64,000 nt of DNA from an uncultured Gemmatimonadales bacterium (GTDB lineage: Bacteria; Gemmatimonadota; Gemmatimonadetes; Gemmatimonadales; Gemmatimonadaceae), in the NCBI GenBank assembly GCA_963793305.1, contig CAWBZV010000003.1, positions 224,001 to 288,000 on the forward strand. The letters are read 5' to 3'. The notes below the pieces were generated by a model. It ran no database searches. It saw only the letters and a program-made list of their open reading frames with translations, and was not told the DNA's origin. Position numbers and translations under genes: made by a program. Shown here piece after piece: positions 6,482 through 64,000 of this stretch; the first letter of the stretch is position 1, and each line of letters begins with the position of its first letter.

Positions 6482-7170
6482 CTCGCGCCGCCGCTCCGCG
6501 GCTCGTCGATGCGGCGCTTCGCACCGCTCGACTGGTCGGTTGACCTGCGCTCGGCTTCGCCGATCGCTGCCTCATCGTGCAACATAGACAGTCGTTCCCG
6601 TAGTTTCTGCCCGGCGAGACGCGTACGCGTCTTCACCGTGCCAAGCGGCTGACCGGTCCGCTCGGCGATCTCGGTCTGACTGAGCCCTCCGAAGTACGCC
6701 AACTCCAGCACTTCTCTCTGCTCAGGCGGCAACTCCTTGAGCGCCGCCGCCACGCGCTCGCGACGTTCCGCCTCCTCGGCGCCAGTCGCGGGATTCGGAG
6801 CCGCGCCATCCGACAGGTCGTCGACCACCGAAATCGGCGTCAGCGGCTCCTCCCGAAGCCGCCGCCGCGAGCGCAGCCGGTCGAGGGCGCGGCTCCGCGC
6901 GATCGTGACGATCCACGTCGAGACCGCGCCGCGCGAAGACTGATACCGCGAGGCCTGCCGCCACGCTTGATAGAACGTGTCCTCCACGACATCGTCGGCA
7001 TCGTCTGGGTCGCGCACCAGTCGCACCACCAGTGCATGGATTGGGCGAGACCACCGCTCGTAGAACTGCGACAGCGCTTGGGTCTCGCCCGCGCTCATAC
7101 GCCGAACGAGCTCGCGATCTTCGTCCACGTTGTCCGAAGGATACGCGGACGCGGGCGACAGCGGATTCAT
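6478..7170 (-). CDS. ECF RNA polymerase sigma factor (SigK-like); C-terminal 27 aa derive from a repeat element
   Basis: DADDVVEDTF, WIVTIARSRALD, LAYFGGLSQTEIAERTGQPLGTVKTR. Confidence 0.93.
   Translation of the reverse strand: MNPLSPASAYPSDNVDEDRELVRRMSAGETQALSQFYERWSRPIHALVVRLVRDPDDADDVVEDTFYQAWRQASRYQSSRGAVSTWIVTIARSRALDRLRSRRRLREEPLTPISVVDDLSDGAAPNPATGAEEAERRERVAAALKELPPEQREVLELAYFGGLSQTEIAERTGQPLGTVKTRTRLAGQKLRERLSMLHDEAAIGEAERRSTDQSSGAKRRIDEPRSGGAR
6487..6567 (-). repeat. Multi-hairpin repeat element, copy 1 (inside the sigma factor 3' end)
   Basis: Minus strand TCGGC-GAA-GCCGA ... CAACCGACCA GTCGA-GCGGTGC-GAA-GCGCCGC-A-TCGAC GAGCCGC-GGA-GCGGC. Confidence 0.88.
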
Positions 7171-20078: not shown

Positions 20079-20285
20079 ATGGCACGTCTCAACGGCACTG
20101 TGAAGTGGTTCAACGACGCGAAGGGCTTCGGCTTTATCTCCCGTGAGGGAGGACCGGACGTCTTCGTCCACTTCAGCGCGATCCAAGGCAACGGGTTCAA
20201 ATCCCTGTCCGAAGGCGACCGCGTGGAGTTCGAGATCGTACAGGGTCAAAAGGGTCCGCAAGCCGCAGACGTTATCAAGGCGTAA
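20079..20285 (+). CDS. Cold-shock protein (CspA family)
   Basis: [23 protein letters not shown]. Confidence 0.97.
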
Positions 20286-29335: not shown

Positions 29336-30420
29336 CGGATCAGATCCCGGCCCATCATCGCCCCGGTGGCGGATTTCAGAATCCCTGGGGCCCCGGGAGC
29401 CAGCAAGCGCGGTTCGGACAATTCTTGAGGTGGGCACTGTTCGAGCGCCCACGGACGACACGTCGGGGCACTCCCGACCGGGCCACGTTCGCGGCCGCTC
29501 ACCTGCCCGTGGCGCCGAGCTTCTCGGTTCGCGAGTCGCCCGAAACGCTCGCGATCACCTGGATCGGGCACTCCAGCTTTCTCGTTCAGATCGCCGGGCA
29601 AAACCTGTTGCTCGACCCCGTCTGGGGTGACCGCGCATCGCCGATATCCTGGCTCGGTCCCCAGCAATGGACCCCGCCCGGGATTCCGTTTGACGCGCTG
29701 CCGCCGGTCGACGGGGTCATCCTCTCGCATGACCACTACGACCACCTGGACCAGCCGACTGTACGGCGTTTGGTGAAGCGCTACCCCGAGGCTCAATGGC
29801 GCGCGCCATTGGGCGTGGGACACTGGTTACGCCGAAGGGGAGTGAGCCAAGTGCAGGAGGCCGATTGGTGGGACCAGACCGACCTCGGGCCCCTCAAGCT
29901 CACCGCGACACCGGCGCAGCACTTCTCGGGTCGCCGTCTCGATAATCGAAACGGGACCCTCTGGTGTGGATGGGTCATCCGCGGCGGCGCGGCTCCGCCG
30001 CGCGTCGAGGCGGCAAACAGCGCCGCTCGACTGGTCGGTTGGACCGATCCGGCTCCGCCGACTCCTCACACGGTATTTTTTGCCGGCGACACCGGCGCCC
30101 ACCCGGTTTTTCCCGAGATCGGACAGCGCCACGGCCCGTTCGACGCCGTGCTCATGCCGATCGGAGCCTACGACCCCGAGTGGTTCATGGGCCCCGTTCA
30201 CATCGACCCGGAGCGCGCGGTCTCGGCGTTCCAAGCCCTGAACGCCGGTGACGCCACCATGGTCGCCATGCATTGGGGTACGTTCCAGCTCACCGACGAG
30301 CCAATGGACGAACCCCCCAAACGCGCGACCGCTGCATGGGCGAATGCGGGTCTCCCGCCACACCGGCTCTGGATCCCATCACTCGGCGAGACGAGACGCT
30401 GGCCGTTACACACGCACTGA
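29332..30420 (+). CDS. MBL-fold hydrolase (NAPE-PLD-like) carrying an in-frame repeat insertion
   Basis: TWIGHSS, SHDHYDHLD, PAQHFSGR, FAGDTG, MPIGAY, MHWGTF. Confidence 0.93.
   Translation: MTDQIPAHHRPGGGFQNPWGPGSQQARFGQFLRWALFERPRTTRRGTPDRATFAAAHLPVAPSFSVRESPETLAITWIGHSSFLVQIAGQNLLLDPVWGDRASPISWLGPQQWTPPGIPFDALPPVDGVILSHDHYDHLDQPTVRRLVKRYPEAQWRAPLGVGHWLRRRGVSQVQEADWWDQTDLGPLKLTATPAQHFSGRRLDNRNGTLWCGWVIRGGAAPPRVEAANSAARLVGWTDPAPPTPHTVFFAGDTGAHPVFPEIGQRHGPFDAVLMPIGAYDPEWFMGPVHIDPERAVSAFQALNAGDATMVAMHWGTFQLTDEPMDEPPKRATAAWANAGLPPHRLWIPSLGETRRWPLHTH
29987..30062 (-). repeat. Multi-hairpin repeat element, copy 2 (antisense, in-frame inside the MBL gene)
   Basis: Minus strand TCGGC-GGA-GCCGG ATCGGTCCAACCGACCA GTCGA-GCGGC-gctgttt-GCCGC-C-TCGAC GCGCGGC-GGA-GCCGCGC. 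Confidence 0.9.
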
Positions 30421-43887: not shown

Positions 43888-43966
43888 GCTCGGCGCAGCC
43901 GAGCTCAGGTCAACCGACCAGTCGAGCAGTGCGTAGCCACTGCATCGACGCGCGGCGGAGCCGCGT
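43888..43966 (+). repeat. Multi-hairpin repeat element, copy 3 (intergenic)
   Basis: GCTCGGC-GCA-GCCGAGC TCAGGTCAACCGACCA GTCGA-GCAGTG-cgtagc-CACTGC-A-TCGAC GCGCGGC-GGA-GCCGCG. Confidence 0.9.
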
Positions 43967-45591: not shown

Positions 45592-46766
45592 GCTAGTGAT
45601 GCCTCGAGTCGCGAGAGGCCATCGGCCAACTCATCGCGACGAATTGTCAAAGGAGGTAAGAGGCGGACCGTGTGGTCGCCGGCGGACAACACCAACAGCC
45701 CGCGCTCCCGCGCGCGCCCAACGATATCAGCGGCGGGCTGCACGGTATCAATGCCCCACATGAGCCCCACCCCACGGACGGCCCGAACGTCCGCACGCCG
45801 ACTCGACAACTCGCCGAGAGCAGCCTCCAGCCATGCGCCGTGGGAGCGCACCGTGGCCAGCAACGTCTCGTCGCTGAGCCGCTCGACGACGTAGCGCGCG
45901 ACCGCGGCGACGAACGGACCGCCGCCGAAGGTCGTGCCGTGATCGCCAGGCTGCACCGCGCGCGCGATCTCGTCCGAGAGCAGAATCGCGCCCATCGGCA
46001 ATCCGCCCGCGAGCGGCTTGGCCAGCGTCATGAGATCCGGCGTAATGCCGGACCGCTCGTGCGCAAACAGCCAACCAGTGCGAGCGAGCCCGCACTGAAT
46101 TTCATCCAGGATAAGTGCGACCTTCCGCTCGCGCGTGAGCGCGCGCAGCTCGCGCAAGAACCCTTCGTCGAGCACCCGCACACCACCTTCACCCTGCACG
46201 GGCTCGACGATGACCGCCGCCACCGTCTCGGCGTCGAGCATGCCATCGAGCTCTCGCAAATCGCGCTCGGCGATCGAGACGCCACCCGCGAGCGGACGAT
46301 AGGGCAGGCGATACGACGGCCGGTCGGTTGCCGCCAACGACGCGAACAGCCGACCGTGGAAGGCGCCGCGCAATGCGATGATCTCGTGCTTGGGCGCGCC
46401 ACCAATCGTTCGCGCCCAGCGGCGGGCGAACTTGAACGCGCCCTCGTTGGCCTCGGCGCCCGAATTGCAAAAGAACACGCGGTCGGCGAACGAGTGCTCG
46501 ACGAACCAGCGCGCCAGCGACTCGCCGGGCTCGGTGCGATACAAATTCGATACGTGCACGAGGCCATCGGCCGCGGCGTGCATGGCCTCTCTCAAGCCCT
46601 CATCGCCATACCCCAGCGCATTGACCGCAATGCCACTCGTGAAATCGAGATAGGCGTTGCCCTCGTCATCAAACAGCTCGGCGCCCTCGCCGCGCACAAT
46701 GCGCATGGGCGCGCGCTTGTACGTCGCCAGAATCGCGTCGCCAGTATCCACATATGCGCTCGTCAC
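45588..46766 (-). CDS. argD: Acetylornithine aminotransferase
   Basis: YLDFTSGIAVNALG, FCNSGAEANE, EPVQGEGG, DEIQCG, TLAKPL, HGTTFGG. Confidence 0.93.
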   Translation of the reverse strand: MTSAYVDTGDAILATYKRAPMRIVRGEGAELFDDEGNAYLDFTSGIAVNALGYGDEGLREAMHAAADGLVHVSNLYRTEPGESLARWFVEHSFADRVFFCNSGAEANEGAFKFARRWARTIGGAPKHEIIALRGAFHGRLFASLAATDRPSYRLPYRPLAGGVSIAERDLRELDGMLDAETVAAVIVEPVQGEGGVRVLDEGFLRELRALTRERKVALILDEIQCGLARTGWLFAHERSGITPDLMTLAKPLAGGLPMGAILLSDEIARAVQPGDHGTTFGGGPFVAAVARYVVERLSDETLLATVRSHGAWLEAALGELSSRRADVRAVRGVGLMWGIDTVQPAADIVGRARERGLLVLSAGDHTVRLLPPLTIRRDELADGLSRLEASLA

Positions 46767-47440
46767 GCCAGCACCTCCGGGACGACCGTCGTCCCCGCGT
46801 CCTCGTCCGCCAGCATGGTGAGATCGCCGATCCTCACGCGACCCACCCCGGATTCGGCCGCGCTCGACGCAGCGGCCATCTTCGCGTGCATGCCCCCCGT
46901 TACGCCGCCCGGAAGAACGCCGGGCACGTCGGACACGAACAGCAGCTCGTCGGCTCCGAGCGCGACGGCGATCGCCGAGGCGGCATCATCGCCATTGACG
47001 TTGAGCCCACTGGCGAGCGGCGACACAACGGGCAGGTAGCGACCAGCAAGGAGGTGCCGCAGCACGGTCACGCGCACCGCGCGCACGGTGCCAACGGCGC
47101 CGAGCGCGCCGTCCTCGGCCACCACGGCCGACAGGAGCGCGGCGTCTTCGCCCGAGAGGCCGAGCGCATCTGCGCCGACCGCGACCAGCGCGGCGACGAG
47201 GCGCTTGTTGGCCAGGCCGGAGAGCGCCATGCGCAGGCGATCGATGTCCTCTGGGGCGGTGACGCGCCGGCCATTCACGAACCGCGGCTCGACGCCGGCG
47301 GCACGCTGCAGGGACGAGACTTCGTCTCCGCCGCCATGCACGACAACCAGGGCGCTCGGCGCTTCGCGCCAGCGCGCGGCGATCGCCTGGGCGAGACGCG
47401 GATCGTTTTGGGCACGGCCGCCGACTTTAATAACCTTCAT
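46763..47440 (-). CDS. argB: Acetylglutamate kinase (short)
   Basis: VIKVGG, VVHGGG, GRRVT, NVNGD, TGGMHAK. Confidence 0.88.
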
Positions 47441-48391
47441 CGGGGCAGCCCCGCGGTCTCGTCGATGCCGAGCAGCAGGTTGGCGTTCTGCATCGCCTGG
47501 CCGGCCGCGCCCTTGAGCAGGTTGTCGATGGCGACGTGGACGATCACGACGGGCCGGCGCACGCCTTCCGCGGCGGTCACCGAGATGGCCGCGACGTTGC
47601 GGTGCGTGACGTCGCGCAGCGACGGCGCGCTCGAGACGACATTCGACAAATGGCTCGCCGGCATAGTATGCCGCGAACATGCTGGCGGCATCGTCCAAGC
47701 GATCGATGACGGGCACGGTGATCGTGGCGAGGATCCCGCGCGCGACCGGCAACAGGTGCGGCGTGAACACGAGATCCAGGTCCGCGCCGAGCGCGCCGAG
47801 TGTCGCCCGCATCTCGTCGAGGTGCCGATGGGTATTGCCGACCGCATAGGCGCGGTAATCCTCGGTCACTTCGGCGAACAGCATCTCGCGCTTGGGCGAG
47901 TTCCCCGCGCCGGTGACGCCGCTCGCGGCGTCGGCCGTGACGGTCGCGCCGGGCATGACGACGGCATTGGCGACGAGAGGCGCCAGGCCGAGCAGCACGG
48001 CGGTTGCATAGCAGCCGGGATTGGCGACCAGGTTGGCGTTGCTCACGGCCCAGCGGGTCGGGGGCCCAAGCTCGGGCAACCCATAGGGCGCCGTGGCCCG
48101 GTGGTCGGCCGAGAGATCCACGACCTTGGCGCCGGCCTCCTGCGCGCGCGCGACGTAGGGCGCCGAGGCGCCATGCGGGAGCGCGCTGAACACGAGCGCG
48201 CAATCGCCGAACGGCGCGTCATCGGTCGCCACGAACGTCACGGCGCGACCGCCAACGCGGACGCATTCGCCTTGACGCTCGTTCGCCGCCGCGAACGCGA
48301 GGGTGAGCGCGGGATGCCGTGCCGCGAGCGCGCAGAGTTCGCGTCCCGCGTAGCCACTGGCCCCCAATACGCCCACAGGGTACTTATGCAT
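47437..48391 (-). CDS. argC: N-acetyl-gamma-glutamyl-phosphate reductase (frameshift at ~47642)
   Basis: GASGYAG, ALPHG, ANPGCY, FTPHL; second frame [12 protein letters not shown]. Confidence 0.93.
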
Positions 48392-48426
48392 CGTTAATGC
48401 ATAATCTTGCATCTGGTCTCCGTCAA
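48375..48426 (-). promoter_or_regulatory. argC promoter with tandem ARG boxes
   Basis: TTGACG-N17-TATGCA, 6 nt before the ATG; box aaTGCATAATCTTGCAtc (48396-48413) and a half-match box at 48375-48392, 3 bp apart. Confidence 0.72.
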
Positions 48427-48437
48427 TACATGCGAAC

Positions 48438-48467
48438 AAAAAAGCCGCCCGTTGCATAGGGGCGGCT
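48438..48467 (-). terminator. Intrinsic terminator upstream of the argC promoter
   Basis: Minus strand AGCCGCCC-ctatgcaac-GGGCGGCT followed by a T-run. Confidence 0.75.
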
Positions 48468-49160: not shown

Positions 49161-50378
49161 ATGCCCAGCTCAATCGTCCTCGCCTATTCCGGCGGACTCG
49201 ATACTTCAGTGATCGTCCCGTGGCTCAAGGAGCACTACCCGGGTGCCCGGGTGACGTGCGTCGCGGCTGACATCGGCCAGGGCGACGAGCTCGCCGGCGT
49301 GCGCGAAAAGGCGCTCGCCTCGGGCGCCGATGCCTGCTACATCGAGGACCTGAGACGCGAGTTCGTCGAGGACTTCATCTGGCCCACGCTGCGCGCAGGC
49401 GCGGTGTATGGCCGCAAATACCTCCTCGGCACGTCGATGGCCCGTCCGCTGATCGCCCGCCGCCAGGTAGAGATCGCGCGCACGATCGGCGCTGATGCTT
49501 TGGCGCACGGGTGCACCGGCAAAGGCAACGATCAGGTGCGCTTCGAGCTCACCTATGCGGCGTTCGCGCCGGACCTCCCGGTGATCGCCCCGTGGCGCGT
49601 CTGGGACATCCGGAGCCGCGAAGATGCGATCGCCTATGCCAAGCGCCACGGCATCCCCGTGACCGCGACGGTCGAGAAGATCTACTCGCGCGACCGGAAC
49701 CTCTGGCACGTATCGCACGAGGGCGGCGCGCTGGAGAACCCGGACTCTTTTCCGGCGAGTGATGTCTTCCAGCTCACGACCGACCCGCTCCTGGCCCCGG
49801 AAGAGCCCGAGGACGTCACGATCGACTTCGAGGCCGGCACACCGATCGCGGTCAACGGCCGCGTGCTCGATGCCGTCTCGCTCGTCGCGGCGCTCAACAC
49901 CATCGGCGCCCGGCACGGGGTCGGGCGCATCGATCTCGTCGAAGATCGGCTCGTCGGAATGAAGTCGCGCGGCGTCTACGAGACCCCAGGCGGCACGCTC
50001 CTCTTCGCGGCCCACAGCGAGCTGGAGCAACTCACGCTCGACCGCCGGACCCTCGCGTCCAAGGACCTAATCGCACCCCGCTACGCCGATTTGGTTTACG
50101 AAGGGCGCTGGTGGACGACGGAGCGCGAGGCCTATGATGCCTTTGTGGCCGTAACCCAGGCCCGCGTCAGCGGGTCGATCACGCTGCGCCTCTACAAAGG
50201 CTCCGTGGCCATTGCGGGACGGTCGAGCGACAACGCACTGTACGACGAGCGATTTGTCACGTTCGGCGAGGACGACGTGTATCAACAGAGCGATGCAGCG
50301 GGCTTCATCCGCCTGTATGGGCTATCAGCACGAGTGCAGGCCCTGAAAGATCAGGAGAAAGCATATGCCGTCGCCTGA
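49161..50378 (+). CDS. argG: Argininosuccinate synthase
   Basis: [36 protein letters not shown]. Confidence 0.97.
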
Positions 50379-51820
50379 CGACACGGCGCGAGAACGCGCC
50401 CATCGGCTGTGGGGCGGCCGTTTCGGCACGTCGAGCGCCGCGGCCCTCGATGCGCTGAACCGGTCGATCGATGTCGACTTCCGCCTCTGGCCATTCGACG
50501 TGCAGCTGTCGAAAGCCTGGGCCGTCGCCCTCTGGCAAGCGGGCGTGCTGACGCTCGATGAGAGCAAGCGCATGGAGTCGGGACTCGATGCCGTCGGGAT
50601 CGATCTCGCCGCCGGCGCGATCCCGCTGGCATCGGACGAAGACGTGCACACGATGATCGACCGGATGCTGTCCGACGAGATCGGCTCGCTCGCCGCCAAG
50701 CTGCACACGGGACGCAGCCGCAACGACCAGGTCGCGACCGCCACCCGCCTCTGGTGCGCCGACGCGGCCGCGCAGGTCGCCGAGGCCGTCCGGGCGATGC
50801 AGCGGGTGCTGCTCGCGCACGCCGAGGCCCTGGGCGACACGCTGATGCCGGCGTACACCCACCTCCAGCGCGCCCAGCCCGTCTCGGCCGCGCACTGGCT
50901 CCTCGGCCACTTCTGGCCACTCGACCGCGATCACGACCGGATCATGCACGCCGGCCGCTCCGCGGTCGCGGCGCTCCCATTGGGCGCCGGCGCCATCGCT
51001 GGCTCGGCCTATCCAGTCTCCCGCGTGCTCCTCAAGGAGAGCCTCGGGTTCACGGGCCTCACGCCGAACAGCATCGACGCGGTCGGCGATCGGGATTTCG
51101 TGGCCGAGCTGCTGTTCGCCCTGACCATGCTCGGCGTGCACGTCTCGCGACTGGCCGAGGATCTCATTCTGTTCGGCTCGGCCGAGTTCTCGTTCGTGCA
51201 GTTCGGCGAGGCGTTCACGACCGGCTCGAGCATGATGCCGCAGAAACGGAACCCAGACGCGTTGGAATTGTCGCGCGCGTCGAGCGCTCGGATGCTCGGT
51301 GATCTGGTCGCCCTTGTCACGACGCTCAAGGGCCTGCCCAGTGGGTACAACAAGGACATGCAGGACGACAAGCGGGCGTTGTTCGACGCCGTCGACACCA
51401 TGCGCCTGGTTCTCCCCGCGTTGGCGGGAGCGGTTGGCGAGCTCACGTTCAAGGCCGACCGGATGGCGGCGGCGCTCTCCAGCACGATGATGGCGACCGA
51501 CCTCGCCGATTACCTGGTGCGAAAAGGCGCAACGTTCCGCGATGCGCACCGGGCGGTCGGAGAGATCATCCGGACCGCTGAAGCGAAACGGGTCGACCTC
51601 GGCCAGTTGCCGCTCGACACGTACGTCGCGGCTCACCCCCTATTTGGCGCGGAACGTCTTCGAGGCACTCTCGCCCAAGGCGTCGACCGAGCAGCGGGAG
51701 ATCCCTGGCGGCACCGGCCCGAACGCGGTCCGCGACCAAATCGAGGCCGCAAGGGCCACCCTTCGTCCAACGCGTGAGACACCGCGCGGAAACGAGATGC
51801 CGTTGCTCGCGGTGGGGTAG
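50365..51820 (+). CDS. argH: Argininosuccinate lyase (frameshift at ~51653)
   Basis: [29 protein letters not shown]-terminus VFEALSP...GGTG in another frame. Confidence 0.95.
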
Positions 51821-53818: not shown

Positions 53819-56800
53819 ATGCTAATGTTGCCACGTCTTGGGGGGTCTGGGGGGCGTAGTTGCGGTTCGCCCCCCAGAGGAGAACAGACCAGTCGAGCGG
53901 CGCGAAGCGCTGCGTCGACGCGCCGCGGAGCGGCGTCACGTCTCTTTTGGATTGCCGTGCTCGCGCTGATCCCGGCGGTAATCCGGGCGCAGGTGGGCGT
54001 GTCCACCGACATCATCACTGGACAAGTCACGTCGCCCGACGGTCATCCCGTGCCGGGTGTGAGCATTCGCGTTGTCTCGACCGAGACACAGATCGGCCGC
54101 AACGCGACGACGAACTCTGACGGTCGCTACACGGTCGTGTTCCCCGACGGTGGTGGGAATTATCGCGTCGAGGCGCGCTTTGTCGGCTATCAGCCTTCGC
54201 GCCTCATGATCGGTCGCCAGGCCGACGAAGACCGGCTCGTCGCGAACATTCAGCTCGGGACATCGATCCCGACGCTCTCCACGGTGCGCACCACCGCGCG
54301 TCGCAATCAGCCGCGCGGCGATGCCGGTGGCACGGGTCGCTCGATGACGCCGCAGCAGCTCGACCGGTTGCCGATCGACGCCACCGACCCGAACACGATC
54401 GCGACGCTCGCCCCTGGCGTCGTCGGCATCGGCTCGACGGACACGACCGCGTCGTCGTTCTCCGTCGCGGGGCAGCGGCCAACGCTCAACAGCGTGACGC
54501 TCGACGGGACGACGTTCAGCGGCTCGGCGATTCCGTCCGAGGCCATTCGCAATACGCGCGTGATCACGAACACGTACAATGTCGCCCGTGGACAGTTCAC
54601 GGGCGGCCAGGTCGCGTCGACGACGCGCGGCGGGACGAACGTGCCGAGTGGGTCGTTCGGCTACTACTTCCGGAACCCATCGCTGGCGTTCGGCGAGCAA
54701 GGACCGAGCGCGTTCAGTCAGCTCCGCAATCAGAACCAACTGTCGGGCGGCGTCGGCGGGCCGCTCATGGTCGACCACATCTTCACGTTCAGCGCCTTCA
54801 ATCTGAGTCGTCGCGCGGACGACCTCGTGGATCTCGCCAACGACGATCCGACGACGCTCGCGCAGCTCGGCGTGCCGCAGAGCACCGTGACGACGTTCTT
54901 GAGGGCGCTGCAACAGAAGGGCGTGCCGATCACGAACGCGCTCGTGCCCGACTCGCGGTCGGTCGATAATCTCGCGGCGTTCGAGCGGCTCGATTTTCTC
55001 ATCGGCGACAACAATTCCCTGGTCGTGCGCGGCGATTTCCGCGGGCGGTTGCAAGACGGGCAGCGCGTGAGCCCGTACACGATCCCGACGGCCGGCGGCC
55101 ATCTCGACGGCGCGGGCGGCGGGATCTTTGCGTCGCTCACCACGCACTTGCCCGGCAACTTCATCAACGAAGTGCGCACGTATGGGCAGCGCGACTATCA
55201 GTCGACGAGCCCATACCTGAGCGGCCTCGCGGGACGCGTCAACGTGTTGCCCGAGACGACCTCCACATCGACCGGCATCACGACGTTCGGCTTCGGCGGC
55301 AATCCGGGCCTTCCCCAGTCCGGCTATACCGATCTCTGGGAGTCGACCGACGAGGTGTCCTGGCTCTCGCCGCGAGGCGGCCACCGGGTTCGTCTCGGCA
55401 TGCTCTTCGATCTCGGGCGCTCGTCGCAGCTCTACAATTTTGGCGTGAACGGCATCTACACGTACAACTCGCTGGCCGCGTTCGACTCCAACCAGGCGGC
55501 GACGTTCACGCGTTCGTTCAATGCCAACGCCTATCACGCCGGGTCGACCAGTGGAGCGGTGTACCTGGGCGACACGTGGGTCCCGTGGTCGCCGCTTCAG
55601 CTCACCTATGGCGTTCGCGTGGAAGGAACCGAGTATACCGGCGCTCCGGCCGAAAACGCTCAGGTCGACCATTTGTTCGGATTGAATACGAACTACTGGC
55701 CGTCAGAGATCCACGCGAGTCCGCGCATTGGCTTCACGTACTTCGTGCGCAATCCAAACGGGCCACCGGCAGCGGTGATACGTGGCGGATTTGGCGAATT
55801 CAGGGCCAACGCGCCATTGTCGCTCTTCTCCTCAGCGCAATCCGAGAATGGTCTCTCGAGCGGCGAGTCGCAGCTCATTTGCATTGGCCCGGGCGTGCCG
55901 TTCAACACGACCGCGGGATGGGGCGGATACTTGAACGGATCGACGCCGATTCCCACGTCGTGCAACAGCGGCTTCGGCACGTTCGGCGACAGTGTGCCCT
56001 TGAGACAGGTCGCCGGGTTCGATCGCGACTTCGAGTCGCCGCGCGCGTGGCGCGGATCGCTCGGCATACAGAAGCGGCTGTTCGGCACCGTGAACGGCTC
56101 GGTCGACTACTCGTATGCGCGCGGAATGGCGTTGTTCGGCGTGACCGATGCCAATCTCAATACGACGCCGGCGCTGTATCTTCGCGACGAAGGCAACCGC
56201 CCGATCTACAGTTCGCAGATCGACCCGACGACGGGCGCGGTCAGCTACGTCGGATCCCGGAAGGACGGGGAATTCGGTCAGGTCTGGGACATCAATTCGC
56301 GGCTCCAGTCGGAGACGCACCAGGTCACGGTCGCGATCAATGGCTTCACCCTACGCGGGATCGCGTACTCGTTGGCGTACACGTATCAGCACGCGCGTGA
56401 CCAGTCATCGTTCTCCGGCGGGTCGGCGTCGTACGGCTTCAGTTCCGCGACGACGGGCGGCAACCCGAACAACGTCGGGTGGGGCACGAGCGACCTGCAG
56501 CGCATGCACCAGTTTATCGGGACGTTCACCTACCCCGTTACACCATCGTTCGAGATCACGTCGATCGCCCGGCTCAACTCCGGCGCGCCGTACACGCCGA
56601 TCGTCAATCAAGACATCAACGGCAATGGCACGCGGAACGATCGCGCGTTCGTGTTCAATCCCGCGCAACTGCCGACGTACGACAGCGCCTACGCCGCGCC
56701 ACTCAAGGCGCTGCTCAATAGCTCATCGTCGCGCATTCGCGATTGCCTCCAGAGCCAGCTGGGCCAGGTCGCGGGTCGCAACAGCTGCGACGGCCCGTGG

Positions 56801-57580
56801 GCGCCGGCGCTGGATCTGCAGTTCAACTATCGCCCCGCGTACTTCGGGCTCGACCGGCGGCTCACGCTGTCGATCCTGGCCGTCAATTCGCTCACCGGAC
56901 TCGATGAGCTCGTGCACGGTCCGAATCACCTCGCCGGGTGGGGGCAGTCATTTCCACCGGACAACGTGCTGCTCTACGTGAAGGGGTACGACGAGACCAA
57001 CAACCGGTTCATCTATCAGGTGAACCAGCATTTCGGCCAGCCATACAGCGCGTACGGCGCATTCGCCGCACCGTTCCAGCTCGTGTTCCAAGCGCGCTTT
57101 GCCTTTGGCAACGTCACGGATCTCCGCAACATGTTCGGCGGCGGCGGCCGTGGCGACGGCGGCCGGCCCGGCGGGCCGGAGGGCGGTGCTGGCGCCGGCG
57201 CTCAGCCGATCTCGCTCGCCGATCAGATCGCGCAGCGGTTCGCGGATCGGTTCCCGAATCCGTTCGACCAGATCCTGGAGCTCAAGGACACGCTCGCACT
57301 CACGCCTGACGAGATCGGCAAGCTGACCACGGCCTCTGACTCGCTCAAAGAGCAAATCGCGACACTCAAGGGGCATGTGTCGACACAACTGGCGAAGCTC
57401 GGCAACAATCCCGATCCCGGCACGCTCATGTCACTCCTGCGACCCGAGCTCCTCGAGGCGCGGGGCATGAGCCGCGCGGCGCTGACCCAGGCTCAGGCCA
57501 TCCTGACCCCGGACCAATGGAAGAAGGTGCCGACCTCGATCAAAGAGCCGCGCCAGGGCGGCGGGGGCGGTCCGCGTTAG
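53819..57580 (+). CDS. Oar-like TonB-dependent receptor with carboxypeptidase-regulatory-like N-domain and C-terminal helical extension
   Basis: GQVT..DG.PV.GV, TNSDGRY, NSVTLDG, TRGGTN, TYGVRVE, SPRIGF; extra domain after FQARFAFG. Confidence 0.88.
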   Translation: MLMLPRLGGSGGRSCGSPPRGEQTSRAARSAASTRRGAASRLFWIAVLALIPAVIRAQVGVSTDIITGQVTSPDGHPVPGVSIRVVSTETQIGRNATTNSDGRYTVVFPDGGGNYRVEARFVGYQPSRLMIGRQADEDRLVANIQLGTSIPTLSTVRTTARRNQPRGDAGGTGRSMTPQQLDRLPIDATDPNTIATLAPGVVGIGSTDTTASSFSVAGQRPTLNSVTLDGTTFSGSAIPSEAIRNTRVITNTYNVARGQFTGGQVASTTRGGTNVPSGSFGYYFRNPSLAFGEQGPSAFSQLRNQNQLSGGVGGPLMVDHIFTFSAFNLSRRADDLVDLANDDPTTLAQLGVPQSTVTTFLRALQQKGVPITNALVPDSRSVDNLAAFERLDFLIGDNNSLVVRGDFRGRLQDGQRVSPYTIPTAGGHLDGAGGGIFASLTTHLPGNFINEVRTYGQRDYQSTSPYLSGLAGRVNVLPETTSTSTGITTFGFGGNPGLPQSGYTDLWESTDEVSWLSPRGGHRVRLGMLFDLGRSSQLYNFGVNGIYTYNSLAAFDSNQAATFTRSFNANAYHAGSTSGAVYLGDTWVPWSPLQLTYGVRVEGTEYTGAPAENAQVDHLFGLNTNYWPSEIHASPRIGFTYFVRNPNGPPAAVIRGGFGEFRANAPLSLFSSAQSENGLSSGESQLICIGPGVPFNTTAGWGGYLNGSTPIPTSCNSGFGTFGDSVPLRQVAGFDRDFESPRAWRGSLGIQKRLFGTVNGSVDYSYARGMALFGVTDANLNTTPALYLRDEGNRPIYSSQIDPTTGAVSYVGSRKDGEFGQVWDINSRLQSETHQVTVAINGFTLRGIAYSLAYTYQHARDQSSFSGGSASYGFSSATTGGNPNNVGWGTSDLQRMHQFIGTFTYPVTPSFEITSIARLNSGAPYTPIVNQDINGNGTRNDRAFVFNPAQLPTYDSAYAAPLKALLNSSSSRIRDCLQSQLGQVAGRNSCDGPWAPALDLQFNYRPAYFGLDRRLTLSILAVNSLTGLDELVHGPNHLAGWGQSFPPDNVLLYVKGYDETNNRFIYQVNQHFGQPYSAYGAFAAPFQLVFQARFAFGNVTDLRNMFGGGGRGDGGRPGGPEGGAGAGAQPISLADQIAQRFADRFPNPFDQILELKDTLALTPDEIGKLTTASDSLKEQIATLKGHVSTQLAKLGNNPDPGTLMSLLRPELLEARGMSRAALTQAQAILTPDQWKKVPTSIKEPRQGGGGGPR
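53839..53943 (+). repeat. Multi-hairpin repeat element, copy 4 (composite, 105 bp, in the signal-peptide region)
   Basis: CTGGGGGGCG...CGCCCCCCAG hairpin plus GACCA GTCGA-GCGGCGC-GAA-GCGCTGC-G-TCGAC GCGCCGC-GGA-GCGGCG; CACGTCT direct repeats at 53832 and 53937. Confidence 0.85.
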
Positions 57581-58074
57581 AGTTGGACCCCGAACATCCA
57601 CTGCCCATAATAATTCTGGTTGAGACCGCGGCCTTCGAACGTGCGGTGGAATCGCAGCTCGCTGAAGAGCGAGACCTTCGCGGCGACCGGTACGCGCAAT
57701 CCGAATCCGACGTTTGTGCCGAAGTGACTGCCGCCACCGACGTATAAGCCGGTGTAGTAGCCGAGTCCGGCGAGAAAGTACGGGTGCACGCGCTTGGTCG
57801 GGATCGTGACGACGGCGTCCGCGCTCCCGCTCCACGCAGTGACCGCGCCGCCGCCATTGAGGTGAAACTGGTTGAACCCTCCCTCGAACCGGGCGCCCAA
57901 GGGCGAGGGGGTATCGAACCCGATGAACCCGAGTACAGAGTAGCCGACGTTGACGTTATACGTGTCGATCGGGAATGCCAGGCCGCCGCCGAAGCCGTAG
58001 TTCAGGCTCTGTGCGTTGGCGACGGACGCGAGCGCGGCGAACGCGCACGCGGTGAGTGCCGCGCGTACTTGCAT
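57577..58074 (-). CDS. Outer-membrane beta-barrel protein
   Basis: Signal peptide, PYFLAGLGYY, FGTNVGFG, FSELRFH, FGVQL. Confidence 0.85.
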   Translation of the reverse strand: MQVRAALTACAFAALASVANAQSLNYGFGGGLAFPIDTYNVNVGYSVLGFIGFDTPSPLGARFEGGFNQFHLNGGGAVTAWSGSADAVVTIPTKRVHPYFLAGLGYYTGLYVGGGSHFGTNVGFGLRVPVAAKVSLFSELRFHRTFEGRGLNQNYYGQWMFGVQL

Positions 58075-58091
58075 AGTTCGTTTTGGTTCGA

Positions 58092-58691
58092 TCAGCGTTC
58101 AGCGGTGACCGTTGGAAACGAGACGCCAAACACGAGCGGCAACATCGACGCATTGGCGTGCGGGCCAAAGTAATACAGATAGCGCGCCTCGGCGAATATG
58201 CCGATTCCGATGCCGGGACCTACGCCGAAAAGGCGGTACCGCGCACCTGCGCCGCCATCGAGGCCGAAGTGTGCGGCGGTCAGCGTCGGCACCGTGGGCG
58301 ATGGGCCGACAGCGGCCTTGGCTCGCAGGTTCTCTGACGTGTGATAATATCCGCCGCCGCCGATCACGTACGGAATGATCCCCTGTGGCGAGTTGGGGAA
58401 CGACCAGATCGCGTTACCAGAGATCGCCCAGACTTGCTGCGCGCCGAGGTAGTTGCTCGTGTGGTCGTACTCATCGTACAGACCTTCGAGTCGCACGCTG
58501 ATCGGGATGAACGGCGCGGTGTAATGCAGCCCCAATAGACCATTGAATCCCGGTGTCGCGGTGTTCGTCTTCAGTTGTCCGAACTGAAACGACGGGCCCG
58601 TGCCGAGGTCGAGGGACACCGGGATCTGCGCCGTGGCCTGGGCGGCCACGGCAGTGATACTGGCGAGTACTGCGAACCGAATCGCGCGCAT
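58092..58691 (-). CDS. Outer-membrane beta-barrel protein
   Basis: PYVIGGGGYY, FGLDGGAG, FAEARY, LPLVFGVSF. Confidence 0.85.
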   Translation of the reverse strand: MRAIRFAVLASITAVAAQATAQIPVSLDLGTGPSFQFGQLKTNTATPGFNGLLGLHYTAPFIPISVRLEGLYDEYDHTSNYLGAQQVWAISGNAIWSFPNSPQGIIPYVIGGGGYYHTSENLRAKAAVGPSPTVPTLTAAHFGLDGGAGARYRLFGVGPGIGIGIFAEARYLYYFGPHANASMLPLVFGVSFPTVTAER

Positions 58692-58718
58692 GCTCTCAAT
58701 CTATCGAGTGCGCACGCG

Positions 58719-59237
58719 CTAGAGCTGAATGCCGAATGTCAGAGGGATGTACTGGGTGTTCGCATTGATCACGTAGTGATAGCGCAGCTCGCCGAAGACC
58801 GAGAACAAGAGCGGGATGTGCGCCTTCACCCCGACCCCGGCATTGATGCCGAACTTGCTGGCGGATGTCCCGAGGCCAGGGCTGATGTCGGTGTAGTAGT
58901 ACCCCACGCCACCGATGAAGTAGGGCGCGATCAGAGGCGCCGGAATTCTGACCGTCGCGTTCGCGGTCGCGGACCAGACATTGTCGTGCCCTGCATCGAA
59001 CTTGACGGGCAGATGCACGAACGATCCATCGAGCCGCAGTCCAACCGGCAGCAGCGAAGACTCGATGCCGCCGAACACGAGCACGTTGTACCCGCTGTTA
59101 TCGATGTTGCTCGTATTGCCGACGGGCAACGCGAGCCCGCCGCCGGCGCCGAGCGTGGGGTGGATGATCTGCGCCTGTCCTCTGGGCGCGGCGATGAGTA
59201 TCCCGAAAAGTGCACAGACCAGGGCACGCGGATTCAT
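58719..59237 (-). CDS. Outer-membrane beta-barrel protein
   Basis: PYFIGGVGYY, FGINAGVG, FGELRYH, IPLTFGIQL. Confidence 0.85.
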   Translation of the reverse strand: MNPRALVCALFGILIAAPRGQAQIIHPTLGAGGGLALPVGNTSNIDNSGYNVLVFGGIESSLLPVGLRLDGSFVHLPVKFDAGHDNVWSATANATVRIPAPLIAPYFIGGVGYYYTDISPGLGTSASKFGINAGVGVKAHIPLLFSVFGELRYHYVINANTQYIPLTFGIQL

Positions 59238-59334
59238 GCGCAGGGACCTCACAAGTTGTGGTGACCAAATAACTTCAATCGCGCCGACAGCGCGCGCGAT
59301 GTCACCACAAGTGGCAAGTCTCGTGCAGAGACGC

Positions 59335-59367
59335 GAGCGGGGCGCCCGAAAACCGGACGCCCCGCTC
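59335..59367 (-). terminator. GC hairpin after csp gene
   Basis: GAGCGGGGCG...CGCCCCGCTC; weak U-tract. Confidence 0.5.
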
Positions 59368-59392
59368 ACTGACCTCTTCGTTCGCCGACGAA

Positions 59393-59614
59393 TTACCGGC
59401 CAGCGCCGCCCGACTTCACGACGTTCTCGGCTGCAGGACCCTTCTGCCCCTGCACGATGTCGAACTCGACGACATCACCCTCGGCCAGAGACTTGAACCC
59501 GTTGCCCTGGATCGCGCTGTAGTGGACGAAGCAGTCCTTCTGACCATTGTCCGGCGTGATGAACCCAAAGCCCTTCGCGTCGTTGAACCACTTCACTTTC
59601 CCGGTCGTACGCAT
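59393..59614 (-). CDS. Cold-shock protein (CspA family)
   Basis: [23 protein letters not shown]. Confidence 0.97.
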
Positions 59615-63519: not shown

Positions 63520-64000
63520 ATGCGAGCGATGCTGCTCGAAGAGCCCCGCAAGCCGTTACACATGGTCGAATGGCCCGAGCCGACGCCGCTCGAAGGGCAA
63601 GTTCTGATTCATGTCCACGCCTGCGGTGTCTGTCGGACCGACCTCCACATCGTCGATGGGGAGCTCGGCGGAGCCGAGATCGGTCCAACCGACCAGTCGA
63701 GCAGCGCAGCTGCCTCGACGCGCGGCGGAGCCGCGCTGACGCAACCATCGCTGCCGCTGATCATCGGCCACGAGATCGTCGGCACGGTCGCCGCTCGCGG
63801 CCCGGGCGCGAATCGGTTCGCGGTCGGCGACCGGGTCGGCGTGCCCTGGCTCGGCTGGACCGACGACACCTGTTCGTATTGTCGGAGCGGGCGCGAAAAC
63901 CTGTGTCTCAACGCCCGATTCACAGGCTACACGATCGATGGCGGATATGCCGATGCGGTCATCGCCGACGAGCGCTATGCGGTGGCGATCCCCGCGTCGT
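63520..64000 (+). CDS. Zinc-dependent alcohol dehydrogenase (3' truncated) with a 24-aa in-frame insertion
   Basis: Translated by hand (not in the ORF track): MRAMLL...CGVCRTDLH...GHEIVG...GDRVGVPW...CSYC...ENLC. Confidence 0.92.
   Translation, partial: MRAMLLEEPRKPLHMVEWPEPTPLEGQVLIHVHACGVCRTDLHIVDGELGGAEIGPTDQSSSAAASTRGGAALTQPSLPLIIGHEIVGTVAARGPGANRFAVGDRVGVPWLGWTDDTCSYCRSGRENLCLNARFTGYTIDGGYADAVIADERYAVAIPAS
63663..63737 (+). repeat. Multi-hairpin repeat element, copy 5 (in-frame inside ADH)
   Basis: CTCGGC-GGA-GCCGAG ATCGGTCCAACCGACCA GTCGA-GCAGC-GCA-GCTGC-C-TCGAC GCGCGGC-GGA-GCCGCGC. Confidence 0.92.

What the first reader, a model, noticed from the sequence alone, without database searches (positions are those of the whole stretch)
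53832..53943. 105-bp insertion with 7-bp direct repeat inside the TonB-receptor signal peptide
CACGTCT occurs at 53832-53838 and 53937-53943, 35 codons apart. Removing the interval converts the odd 58-aa N-terminus into MLMLPRLFWIAVLALIPAVIRAQ, a typical Sec signal peptide. The insert combines a different G-rich hairpin (CTGGGGGGCG...CGCCCCCCAG) with the right half of the repeat family, so the element seems modular. It may lengthen the n-region or alter translation through strong structure.
Basis: partly seen in the sequence, partly recalled or inferred. Interest (0 to 1): 0.75.

Follow-up and report, generated by a model that had tools for sequence, protein, structure and literature searches.

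The report
Hairpin repeat inside a signal peptide
A 105-base piece at the start of an outer-membrane transporter gene is one copy of a small hairpin-forming DNA repeat that is scattered through this bacterium and also sits, in frame, inside several other genes; here it lengthens the export signal, probably without harm, much as the known Rickettsia repeats do.

Summary
The insertion is real. G001 and G005 orthologues lack exactly 105 bp (43-type alignments), and independent contigs bridge both junctions.

It is one copy of a repeat found only in this genus among those searched: 88 strong copies in this genome. The G-rich left hairpin is not peculiar to it, as 27 copies carry it.

The 7-bp repeat is no fixed target duplication (2 of 83 copies; 0.8 expected by chance). 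The G-rich form, however, often carries 19-119-bp duplications, and the short form never did (20 of 55 versus 0 of 64). So this repeat is probably a short one of those.

Short copies sit in frame in PolI, MeaB, an alcohol dehydrogenase and others, like Rickettsia RPEs. Loops follow the GCGNAGC/GCGNNAGC DNA mini-hairpin motif on one strand. No mobilising enzyme was found.

The receptor stays under purifying selection and has no start codon inside the element, so a tolerated long n-region is likeliest. Unexpected: an 84%-identical relative carries the same insert, 93 of 95 bases identical, while a 94% relative lacks it.

The parts
53819..57580 (+). Outer-membrane beta-barrel receptor ORF, 1253 aa (TonB-dependent-receptor-like; Pfam CarboxypepD_reg + OMP_b-brl_4)
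   Evidence: G000 branch 39 synonymous vs 3 non-synonymous changed codons in 699
53819..53827 (+). Two in-frame ATGs upstream of the element; the second (53825) aligns with the ATG of G001, G003 and G005
53830..53839 (+). Left copy of the short duplication (8 of 10 bases match the right copy; exact 7-mer 53832-53838)
53840..53882 (+). G-rich left module (A1): G run, 11-bp stem 53846-53856/53868-53878, 11-nt loop; a T-A stem variant that is unique in G000 but present at another locus in relatives
53883..53919 (+). Conserved linker and middle hairpin B (stem from 53892, GAA loop 53904-53906, mini-hairpin motif)
53921..53935 (+). Terminal hairpin C with GGA loop; conserved right end of the family
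   Evidence: 84 of 88 copies; arms 56 of one type and 28 of the compensated type
53935..53944 (+). Right copy of the duplication, starting at the element's right end; it resembles the empty alleles
53942..53989 (+). Hydrophobic h-region and putative signal-peptidase site (mature protein from Gln58, inferred)
   Evidence: hydropathy; conserved in orthologues; SignalP not run
6490..6567 (-). Another copy, short (A2) form; ends approximate
29989..30060 (-). A2 copy in frame, antisense, inside a metallo-beta-lactamase-fold gene; net +75 bp against G001-G005
43888..43964 (+). A2 copy, shared with G001
63661..63734 (+). A2 copy in frame inside an alcohol dehydrogenase (ADH_N) gene; net +72 bp against G001

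Best explanation
The 105 bp are one copy of a non-autonomous, three-hairpin DNA repeat confined to this genus, about 97 bp plus about 8 bp of duplicated target. It landed in frame in the n-region of the receptor's signal peptide and is tolerated there: the h-region and cleavage site are intact, and the 35 extra residues should be removed with the signal peptide. SHOWN: insertion, family membership, in-frame residence in other genes, reading-frame filtering, intact receptor. INFERRED (about 0.5): copies act or move as single-stranded DNA, because loops on one strand follow the DNA mini-hairpin motif. INFERRED (about 0.35): they are pasted in by host repair or template-switch synthesis rather than by a cut-and-paste transposase, because the right end is constant while junctions are ragged and target duplications or deletions vary in length. 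INFERRED (about 0.75): translation starts at 53819/53825 and Sec export still works.
For: Empty orthologues. 88 copies at E<=1e-5 and 100 at E<=0.01. In-frame copies with empty orthologues in PolI, MeaB and the MBL-fold gene and in ADH; host names from Pfam. Net insert is a multiple of 3 at 18 of 22 short-form sites, p 4e-6, and at 21 of 31 in a partly overlapping metagenome set, versus 5 of 16 for the G-rich form. Long duplications occur in 4 of 25 G-rich and 0 of 58 short copies in G000, and in 20 of 55 versus 0 of 64 rows in 120 metagenome loci. Mini-hairpin motif: hairpin C 84 of 88, B 63 of 88, short left hairpin 36 of 61; the opposite-strand form in 7 and 1; about 0.03 expected per segment. 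Such hairpins are far more stable as DNA than as RNA and occur at ssDNA priming sites (PMC13037366, passages). Receptor purifying selection, no internal start, n-region 8 basic vs 1 acidic residue. N-terminally extended Sec signal peptides exist (PMC5422565, passages). G000 has four LigD Prim-Pol matches.
Against: No mobilising protein was found, so movement is inferred only from presence/absence. At orthologous sites the element is more conserved than its flanks (15 of 519 vs 36 expected at 10 sites; 93 of 95 in an 84% relative), which a purely neutral parasite does not predict. LigD is also in relatives without the family (G002, G003), so it does not discriminate. Short copies are strongly co-oriented with transcription (39 vs 6; G-rich 9 vs 9, home-made gene calls), which could point to an RNA role. 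Several G-rich copies with 9-43 extra bases show no recognisable duplication. My codon-usage gene caller chose GTG 53957 as start, because the element scores as non-coding. The metagenome rows include the same site from related strains, one mis-bounded row (L384) and one probably mis-typed row (L348).
Confidence: 0.6

Rival explanations
1. The repeat is a host-used cis element (protein-binding, priming or RNA-structure site) kept by selection at each locus, including this one, with occasional loss.
For: About 2.4-fold lower divergence than flanks at 10 shared sites. Site-private variants are kept across relatives 88-91% identical. Fully compensated hairpin C. Sense bias of the short form.
Against: Presence is patchy among close relatives: of 29 G000 copies with an anchored G001 orthologue, 16 were empty. 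Not found outside the genus: 73 pattern hits in G000, and 0 or 1 in each of 400 other genomes of the class. Insertions lie in unrelated proteins. Part of the conservation is ascertainment, since loci were found by exact patterns; I excluded the fixed core, but four G001 loci were found with a pattern covering part of the left module.
Confidence: 0.2
2. It is a REP/REPIN-type element moved in trans by an HUH (RAYT or IS200-like) transposase that has been lost or is unassembled.
For: ssDNA-hairpin anatomy, no fixed duplication, tandem arrays with spacers. REPtrons can be deleted from REP-bearing species (PMC3733652, passage).
Against: No Y1_Tnp in 0 of 6 genus genomes, while the control rang in 6 of 14. 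No conserved terminal GTAG, and CGTC at the end in only 8 of 85 copies. Genomes are 67-95% complete, so absence is not shown.
Confidence: 0.17
3. The insert tunes translation or export of this receptor, for instance by slowing export as extended signal peptides do.
For: Kept in frame in L341 (84%) and L356 (94%, 3 bases shorter). Strong mRNA structure begins about 21 nt after ATG 53825. Extended signal peptides can slow export (PMC5422565, passages).
Against: Empty alleles persist in close relatives, and both alleles occur in one run (X1). The DNA is conserved at non-coding sites too, so conservation is not specific to this peptide. No expression data.
Confidence: 0.1
4. It is a classical MITE with a 7-bp target-site duplication made by a DDE or IS110 transposase.
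For: Exact 7-bp direct repeat here; size in the MITE range.
Against: The two ends are unrelated hairpins, not terminal inverted repeats. Repeats of 7 bp or more in 2 of 83 copies. IS110 matches do not follow the family: present in G003, which lacks it, and none in G001 or G004. DDE families were not searched.
Confidence: 0.04

Closest known systems
Rickettsia palindromic elements (RPE), as summarised in PMC10969869 and PMC3733652 (Ogata et al. 2000/2002 not read)
   Same: Palindromic repeats inserted in frame in unrelated protein genes, including N-termini; PolI is also a recorded target of intragenic REPs.
   Different: 75-97 bp against about 150 bp; three separate hairpins with swappable left modules; mini-hairpin loops; variable long duplications with one form. 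No sequence comparison with RPEs was made.
GTAG and CGTC REPs, REPINs and BIMEs (PMC3733652)
   Same: Short stem-loop repeats near gene ends, clusters, intragenic copies; CGTC families also lack a dedicated transposase.
   Different: No terminal tag (CGTC 8 of 85); head-to-tail triple hairpin rather than single stems or head-to-head dimers; 3-nt GGA loop rather than 4-5 nt; no RAYT found.
DNA mini-hairpins at phage G4 and RSF1010 ssiA priming sites and N4 vRNAP promoters (PMC13037366)
   Same: Same GCGNAGC/GCGNNAGC motif; hairpin C has the GGA-loop version named for the N4 promoter.
   Different: Here dispersed on a chromosome in many copies; no priming or promoter activity shown; RepB_primase matched only G005 of 6 genus genomes (control silent).
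Extended signal peptides of type V secretion proteins (PMC5422565)
   Same: Long N-terminal extension ahead of a normal h-region on a Sec-exported protein.
   Different: Those are semi-conserved; this one is repeat-derived and polymorphic.

Membership tests
RPE-like coding palindromic repeats | Multi-copy palindromic DNA | tested here: met
   88 strong copies; fold z -4.5
RPE-like coding palindromic repeats | In-frame insertion in unrelated genes, absent from orthologues | tested here: met
   receptor, PolI, MeaB, MBL-fold, ADH
RPE-like coding palindromic repeats | Inserted peptide is translated in vivo | not testable with these tools
   no proteomics; the RNA run laid did not cover the insert at this locus
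RPE families proper (RPE-1 to RPE-10) | Sequence similarity to a Rickettsia element | not tested
   no direct comparison; no Rfam match near a gathering score
GTAG/CGTC REP | Unpaired GTAG or CGTC tag at one end | tested here: not met
   CGTC 8 of 85 at the right end; GTAG only inside the G-rich loop
GTAG REP / REPIN | Associated RAYT (Y1_Tnp) gene | tested here: inconclusive
   0 of 6 genomes, but 67-95% complete
MITE | Terminal inverted repeats | tested here: not met
   ends form separate local hairpins
MITE | Fixed-length target-site duplication | tested here: not met
Retroelement (SINE-like, target-primed) | Reverse transcriptase in the carrier genome | tested here: inconclusive
   RVT_1 only in G003, which lacks the family; 0 in the four carriers, which are incomplete
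Single-strand initiation signal | Mini-hairpin motif on one strand | tested here: met
Single-strand initiation signal | Primase-dependent priming activity | not testable with these tools
   needs an assay
Sec signal peptide | Basic n-region, hydrophobic h-region, small residue before the mature start | tested here: met
   charge and hydropathy only; SignalP not available

The most novel reading that the evidence does not exclude
A transposase-free chromosomal mobile element built from DNA mini-hairpins. It is copied by host priming or repair enzymes, its G-rich module drives variable duplication of the target, and it can pass between species about 16% diverged at the same nucleotide with only some 30 bp of flanking homology (homing-like transfer). 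The receptor copy would be an example: 7 differences in 155 bp around and in the element against 97 in 540 bp further out in L341, while closer G001 keeps an ancestral-type empty site.
Probability: 0.2. Interest if true: 0.75.

Novelty: new variant of a known kind. Interest (0 to 1): 0.42.

Why it matters
As a single insertion it is a minor curiosity: repeats in frame in genes are known from Rickettsia and other bacteria. The family is more useful. How REP/RPE-like repeats without a transposase spread is open (PMC3733652 says so for CGTC repeats). This family offers dozens of filled/empty site pairs, two forms with sharply different junctions, a strand-specific DNA-structure signature, and copies whose distribution conflicts with the locus tree. 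These make the question testable by comparative genomics.

Tried and rejected
Mobiliser searches in 6 genus genomes:
- Y1_Tnp 0 of 6.
- RVT_1 only in non-carrier G003.
- IS110 in G000, G003 and G005, not tracking the family; the single G000 hit (C3:810.3 kb) is not near a catalogued copy.
- DUF559 only a weak hit in G003.
- Y2_Tnp 0 of 6, but the control was silent, so uninformative.
- Rep_OBD 0 of 6.
- RepB_primase only in G005.
- A GIY-YIG gene next to the copy at G000 C5:285.3 kb looked like a partner. It is a 353-aa UvrC/Cho-like gene (name recalled from the sequence) conserved in G001-G005, with the site empty there. Rejected.

Other negatives:
- Viral contigs: 98 loci matched a 15-mer; none held the element by HMM.
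- Rfam: 4 chance-level hits.
- Promoter/terminator scan: nothing.
- Replichore strand bias could not be judged because GC skew is weak.

One-sided hypermutation or co-conversion on the left flank was suggested (0.28 and 0.19 mismatch in the first two 10-nt bins). In the larger set it shrank to about 30 nt on both sides, and boundary error may explain it. One search compared duplicated copies without gaps and several rows were out of register, so its totals are not used.

The G-rich loop read on the minus strand resembles the pMV158 nick sequence (PMC1851628, passage). It differs at two of nine bases and no Rep was found, so it stays a resemblance.

RNA run X15 gave no contig across this insert, so splicing or bypass is untested. 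Low-share runs were not used.

Full report
OBSERVATION. The 7-mer occurs at 53832-53838 and 53937-53943, inside the first codons of a 1253-aa ORF with CarboxypepD_reg and OMP_b-brl_4 domains. G001 and G005 lack exactly 105 bp at this place, and G003 lacks the element too. Contigs of run X3, from a different study than X1 and X2, cover both junctions of the filled allele. X1 holds both alleles and X2 the empty one. All runs were contigs, so depths are not allele frequencies.

THE FAMILY. A profile built from the right half found 100 places in G000 at E<=0.01. I analysed the 88 at E<=1e-5: 27 with the G-rich left hairpin (A1, about 95 bp) and 61 with a short, variable left hairpin (A2, about 70-85 bp). 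Five A1 hairpins stand alone, and three copies have extra hairpins in the A1 loop. The family has strong matches in G000, G001, G004 and G005 and none better than E 6e-5 in the other 57 of 61 relatives. A 20-base pattern hit 73 times in G000 and at most once in each of 400 other genomes of the class (5 with one hit). An exact A1 pattern across the species-level genome collection gave 26 loci: 25 from three assemblies labelled Gemmatimonadaceae, and one 5.7-kb contig labelled Bacillota. I infer the last is misbinned.

THE DIRECT REPEAT. Exact repeats of 7 bp or more at the junctions occur in 2 of 83 scorable copies, against 0.82 expected. There is no fixed duplication. Long duplications mostly start within a few bases of the right end. 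They accompany 4 of 25 A1 and 0 of 58 A2 copies in G000, and 20 of 55 versus 0 of 64 rows from 120 metagenome loci (rows are not independent, one is mis-bounded, one probably mis-typed). Lengths run from 19 to 119 bp, and some sites grow into tandem arrays with different junctions in different lineages. The window copy fits this class at the short end: 95 bp of core plus 10 bp, of which 8 match the bases right after the element. Other A1 copies have extra bases with no clear source, or lose target bases.

COPIES IN GENES. A2 copies add 72-75 bp in frame to PolI, MeaB and an MBL-fold gene (empty in G001-G005; net +75 against G001 and G004) and to an alcohol dehydrogenase. Copies without a tested orthologue lie in open frames of MazG, SMC-hinge, nitrile-hydratase-like and L17 genes (these loci were hand-picked). 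Net size is a multiple of 3 at 18 of 22 A2 sites (23 rows, one duplicate site dropped). That is the expected result of selection against frameshifts. A2 copies lie in the sense direction in 39 of 45 co-directional contexts, A1 in 9 of 18 (using my own codon-model gene calls).

STRUCTURE. Hairpin C has a GGA loop in 84 of 88 copies, with 56 and 28 copies of two mutually compensated stems. Hairpin B has GCGNAGC or GCGNNAGC in 63 of 88, and the A2 hairpin in 36 of 61. The opposite-strand form occurs in 7 and 1, against about 0.03 expected per segment. PMC13037366 (passages) describes this motif as far more stable in DNA than in RNA and as present at G4 and RSF1010 priming sites and N4 promoters. 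I infer that the functional form is single-stranded DNA of one strand. The 4-nt loops also fit RNA GNRA loops in part, so this is not proof.

THE RECEPTOR. Two in-frame ATGs precede the element, and no ATG/GTG/TTG lies in frame inside it. The next GTG is within the h-region. The n-region gains charge (8 basic, 1 acidic in 41 residues) and the h-region is unchanged. On the G000 branch 39 synonymous and 3 non-synonymous codon changes were counted in 699 codons, like G001 (41 and 3). The gene therefore looks alive. SignalP could not be run.

THE ODD RESULT. L356 (94% identity) and L341 (84%) carry the same insert in frame. Trees of the upstream gene and of the receptor put G001 with G000 and L356, and L341 outside, yet G001 is empty. 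Its junction resembles G005 and the X1/X2 alleles rather than a slippage product of the filled allele (judged by eye). L341 differs from the window at 2 of 95 element bases (29 were fixed by the search pattern, so 2 of 66 free) and at 5 of 60 adjacent bases, but at 97 of 540 further out. The right flank is also conserved in G005 (3 of 30), so only the element and its left junction are exceptional. Over 13 usable shared pairs (17 found, 4 dropped for background outside 3-25%) free positions differed at 16 of 701. Reduced to 10 sites this was 15 of 519 against 36 expected; one site, L413, was much less conserved. Selection on the DNA or short-tract transfer between lineages could each give this; I cannot separate them.

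MECHANISM. Most likely a selfish hairpin repeat, tolerated here because the n-region is flexible and discarded (0.6). No Y1 transposase, reverse transcriptase, Rep or DUF559 nuclease follows the family, in genomes 67-95% complete; DDE families were not searched. A constant right end, ragged junctions and variable duplications or deletions suit template-switch or break-repair insertion of a single strand. That step is inference only.

LITERATURE. PMC10969869: passages. PMC3733652: abstract, passages and sections 6 and 15; its supplements, which list intragenic REPs and analysed strains, were not read, and its main text does not mention Gemmatimonas. PMC1851628, PMC13037366, PMC5422565: passages. 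Ogata 2000/2002: not read. Searches listed no paper on this family; the library lacks most subscription journals. An earlier AI note (e1-3937479) reports a 90-base in-frame repeat in rarA of another Gemmatimonadaceae genome. A sequence look-up found no look-alike, so whether it is the same family is unknown.

VERDICT. Observation confirmed, interpretation partly supported. A new variant of the RPE/REP-like kind, not a member of any tagged REP or MITE family. Interest 0.42; the homing-like, transposase-free reading has probability 0.2 and would merit 0.75.

Noticed in passing
G000 C5:191.2 kb, C6:62.2-62.4 kb, C4:56.2 kb; L041, L051, L192, L238, L358, L389: Hot spots where G-rich copies form tandem arrays with spacers copied from the right flank; array length and junctions differ among relatives.
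   Followed up: partly
G000 C2:526556 and C5:378486: Lone G-rich hairpins beside sequences that look like tRNA genes by eye; not checked with ARAGORN.
   Followed up: no
G000 C19:10038-10200, C14:29995; L049: Extra hairpins of about 60-70 bp inserted in the loop of the G-rich module; the insert is shared between C14 and L049, which are different sites.
   Followed up: no
L193-L212, window 63661-63734: Most internal in-frame copies leave the element in one reading frame (14 of 22 hand-picked rows end in an RGAA/GGAA-type peptide); not tested against chance.
   Followed up: no
G000 C6:1529 and C21:7269: Two copies with near-identical flanks on different contigs; perhaps an assembly duplicate or a second strain.
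   Followed up: no
window 46763-48457 and 50365-51820: Arginine-biosynthesis-like genes (argC/argB and argH; names recalled from the sequences, from no call) seem to change frame near their 3' ends, with the expected C-terminus in an overlapping ORF; frameshift or assembly error.
   Followed up: no
window 57577-59369: Three short tandem ORFs on the minus strand with outer-membrane beta-barrel-like patterns (by eye) converge on the receptor.
   Followed up: no
window 20093-20282 and 59411-59603: Long inverted match between two paralogous genes that look like cold-shock proteins (name recalled).
   Followed up: no
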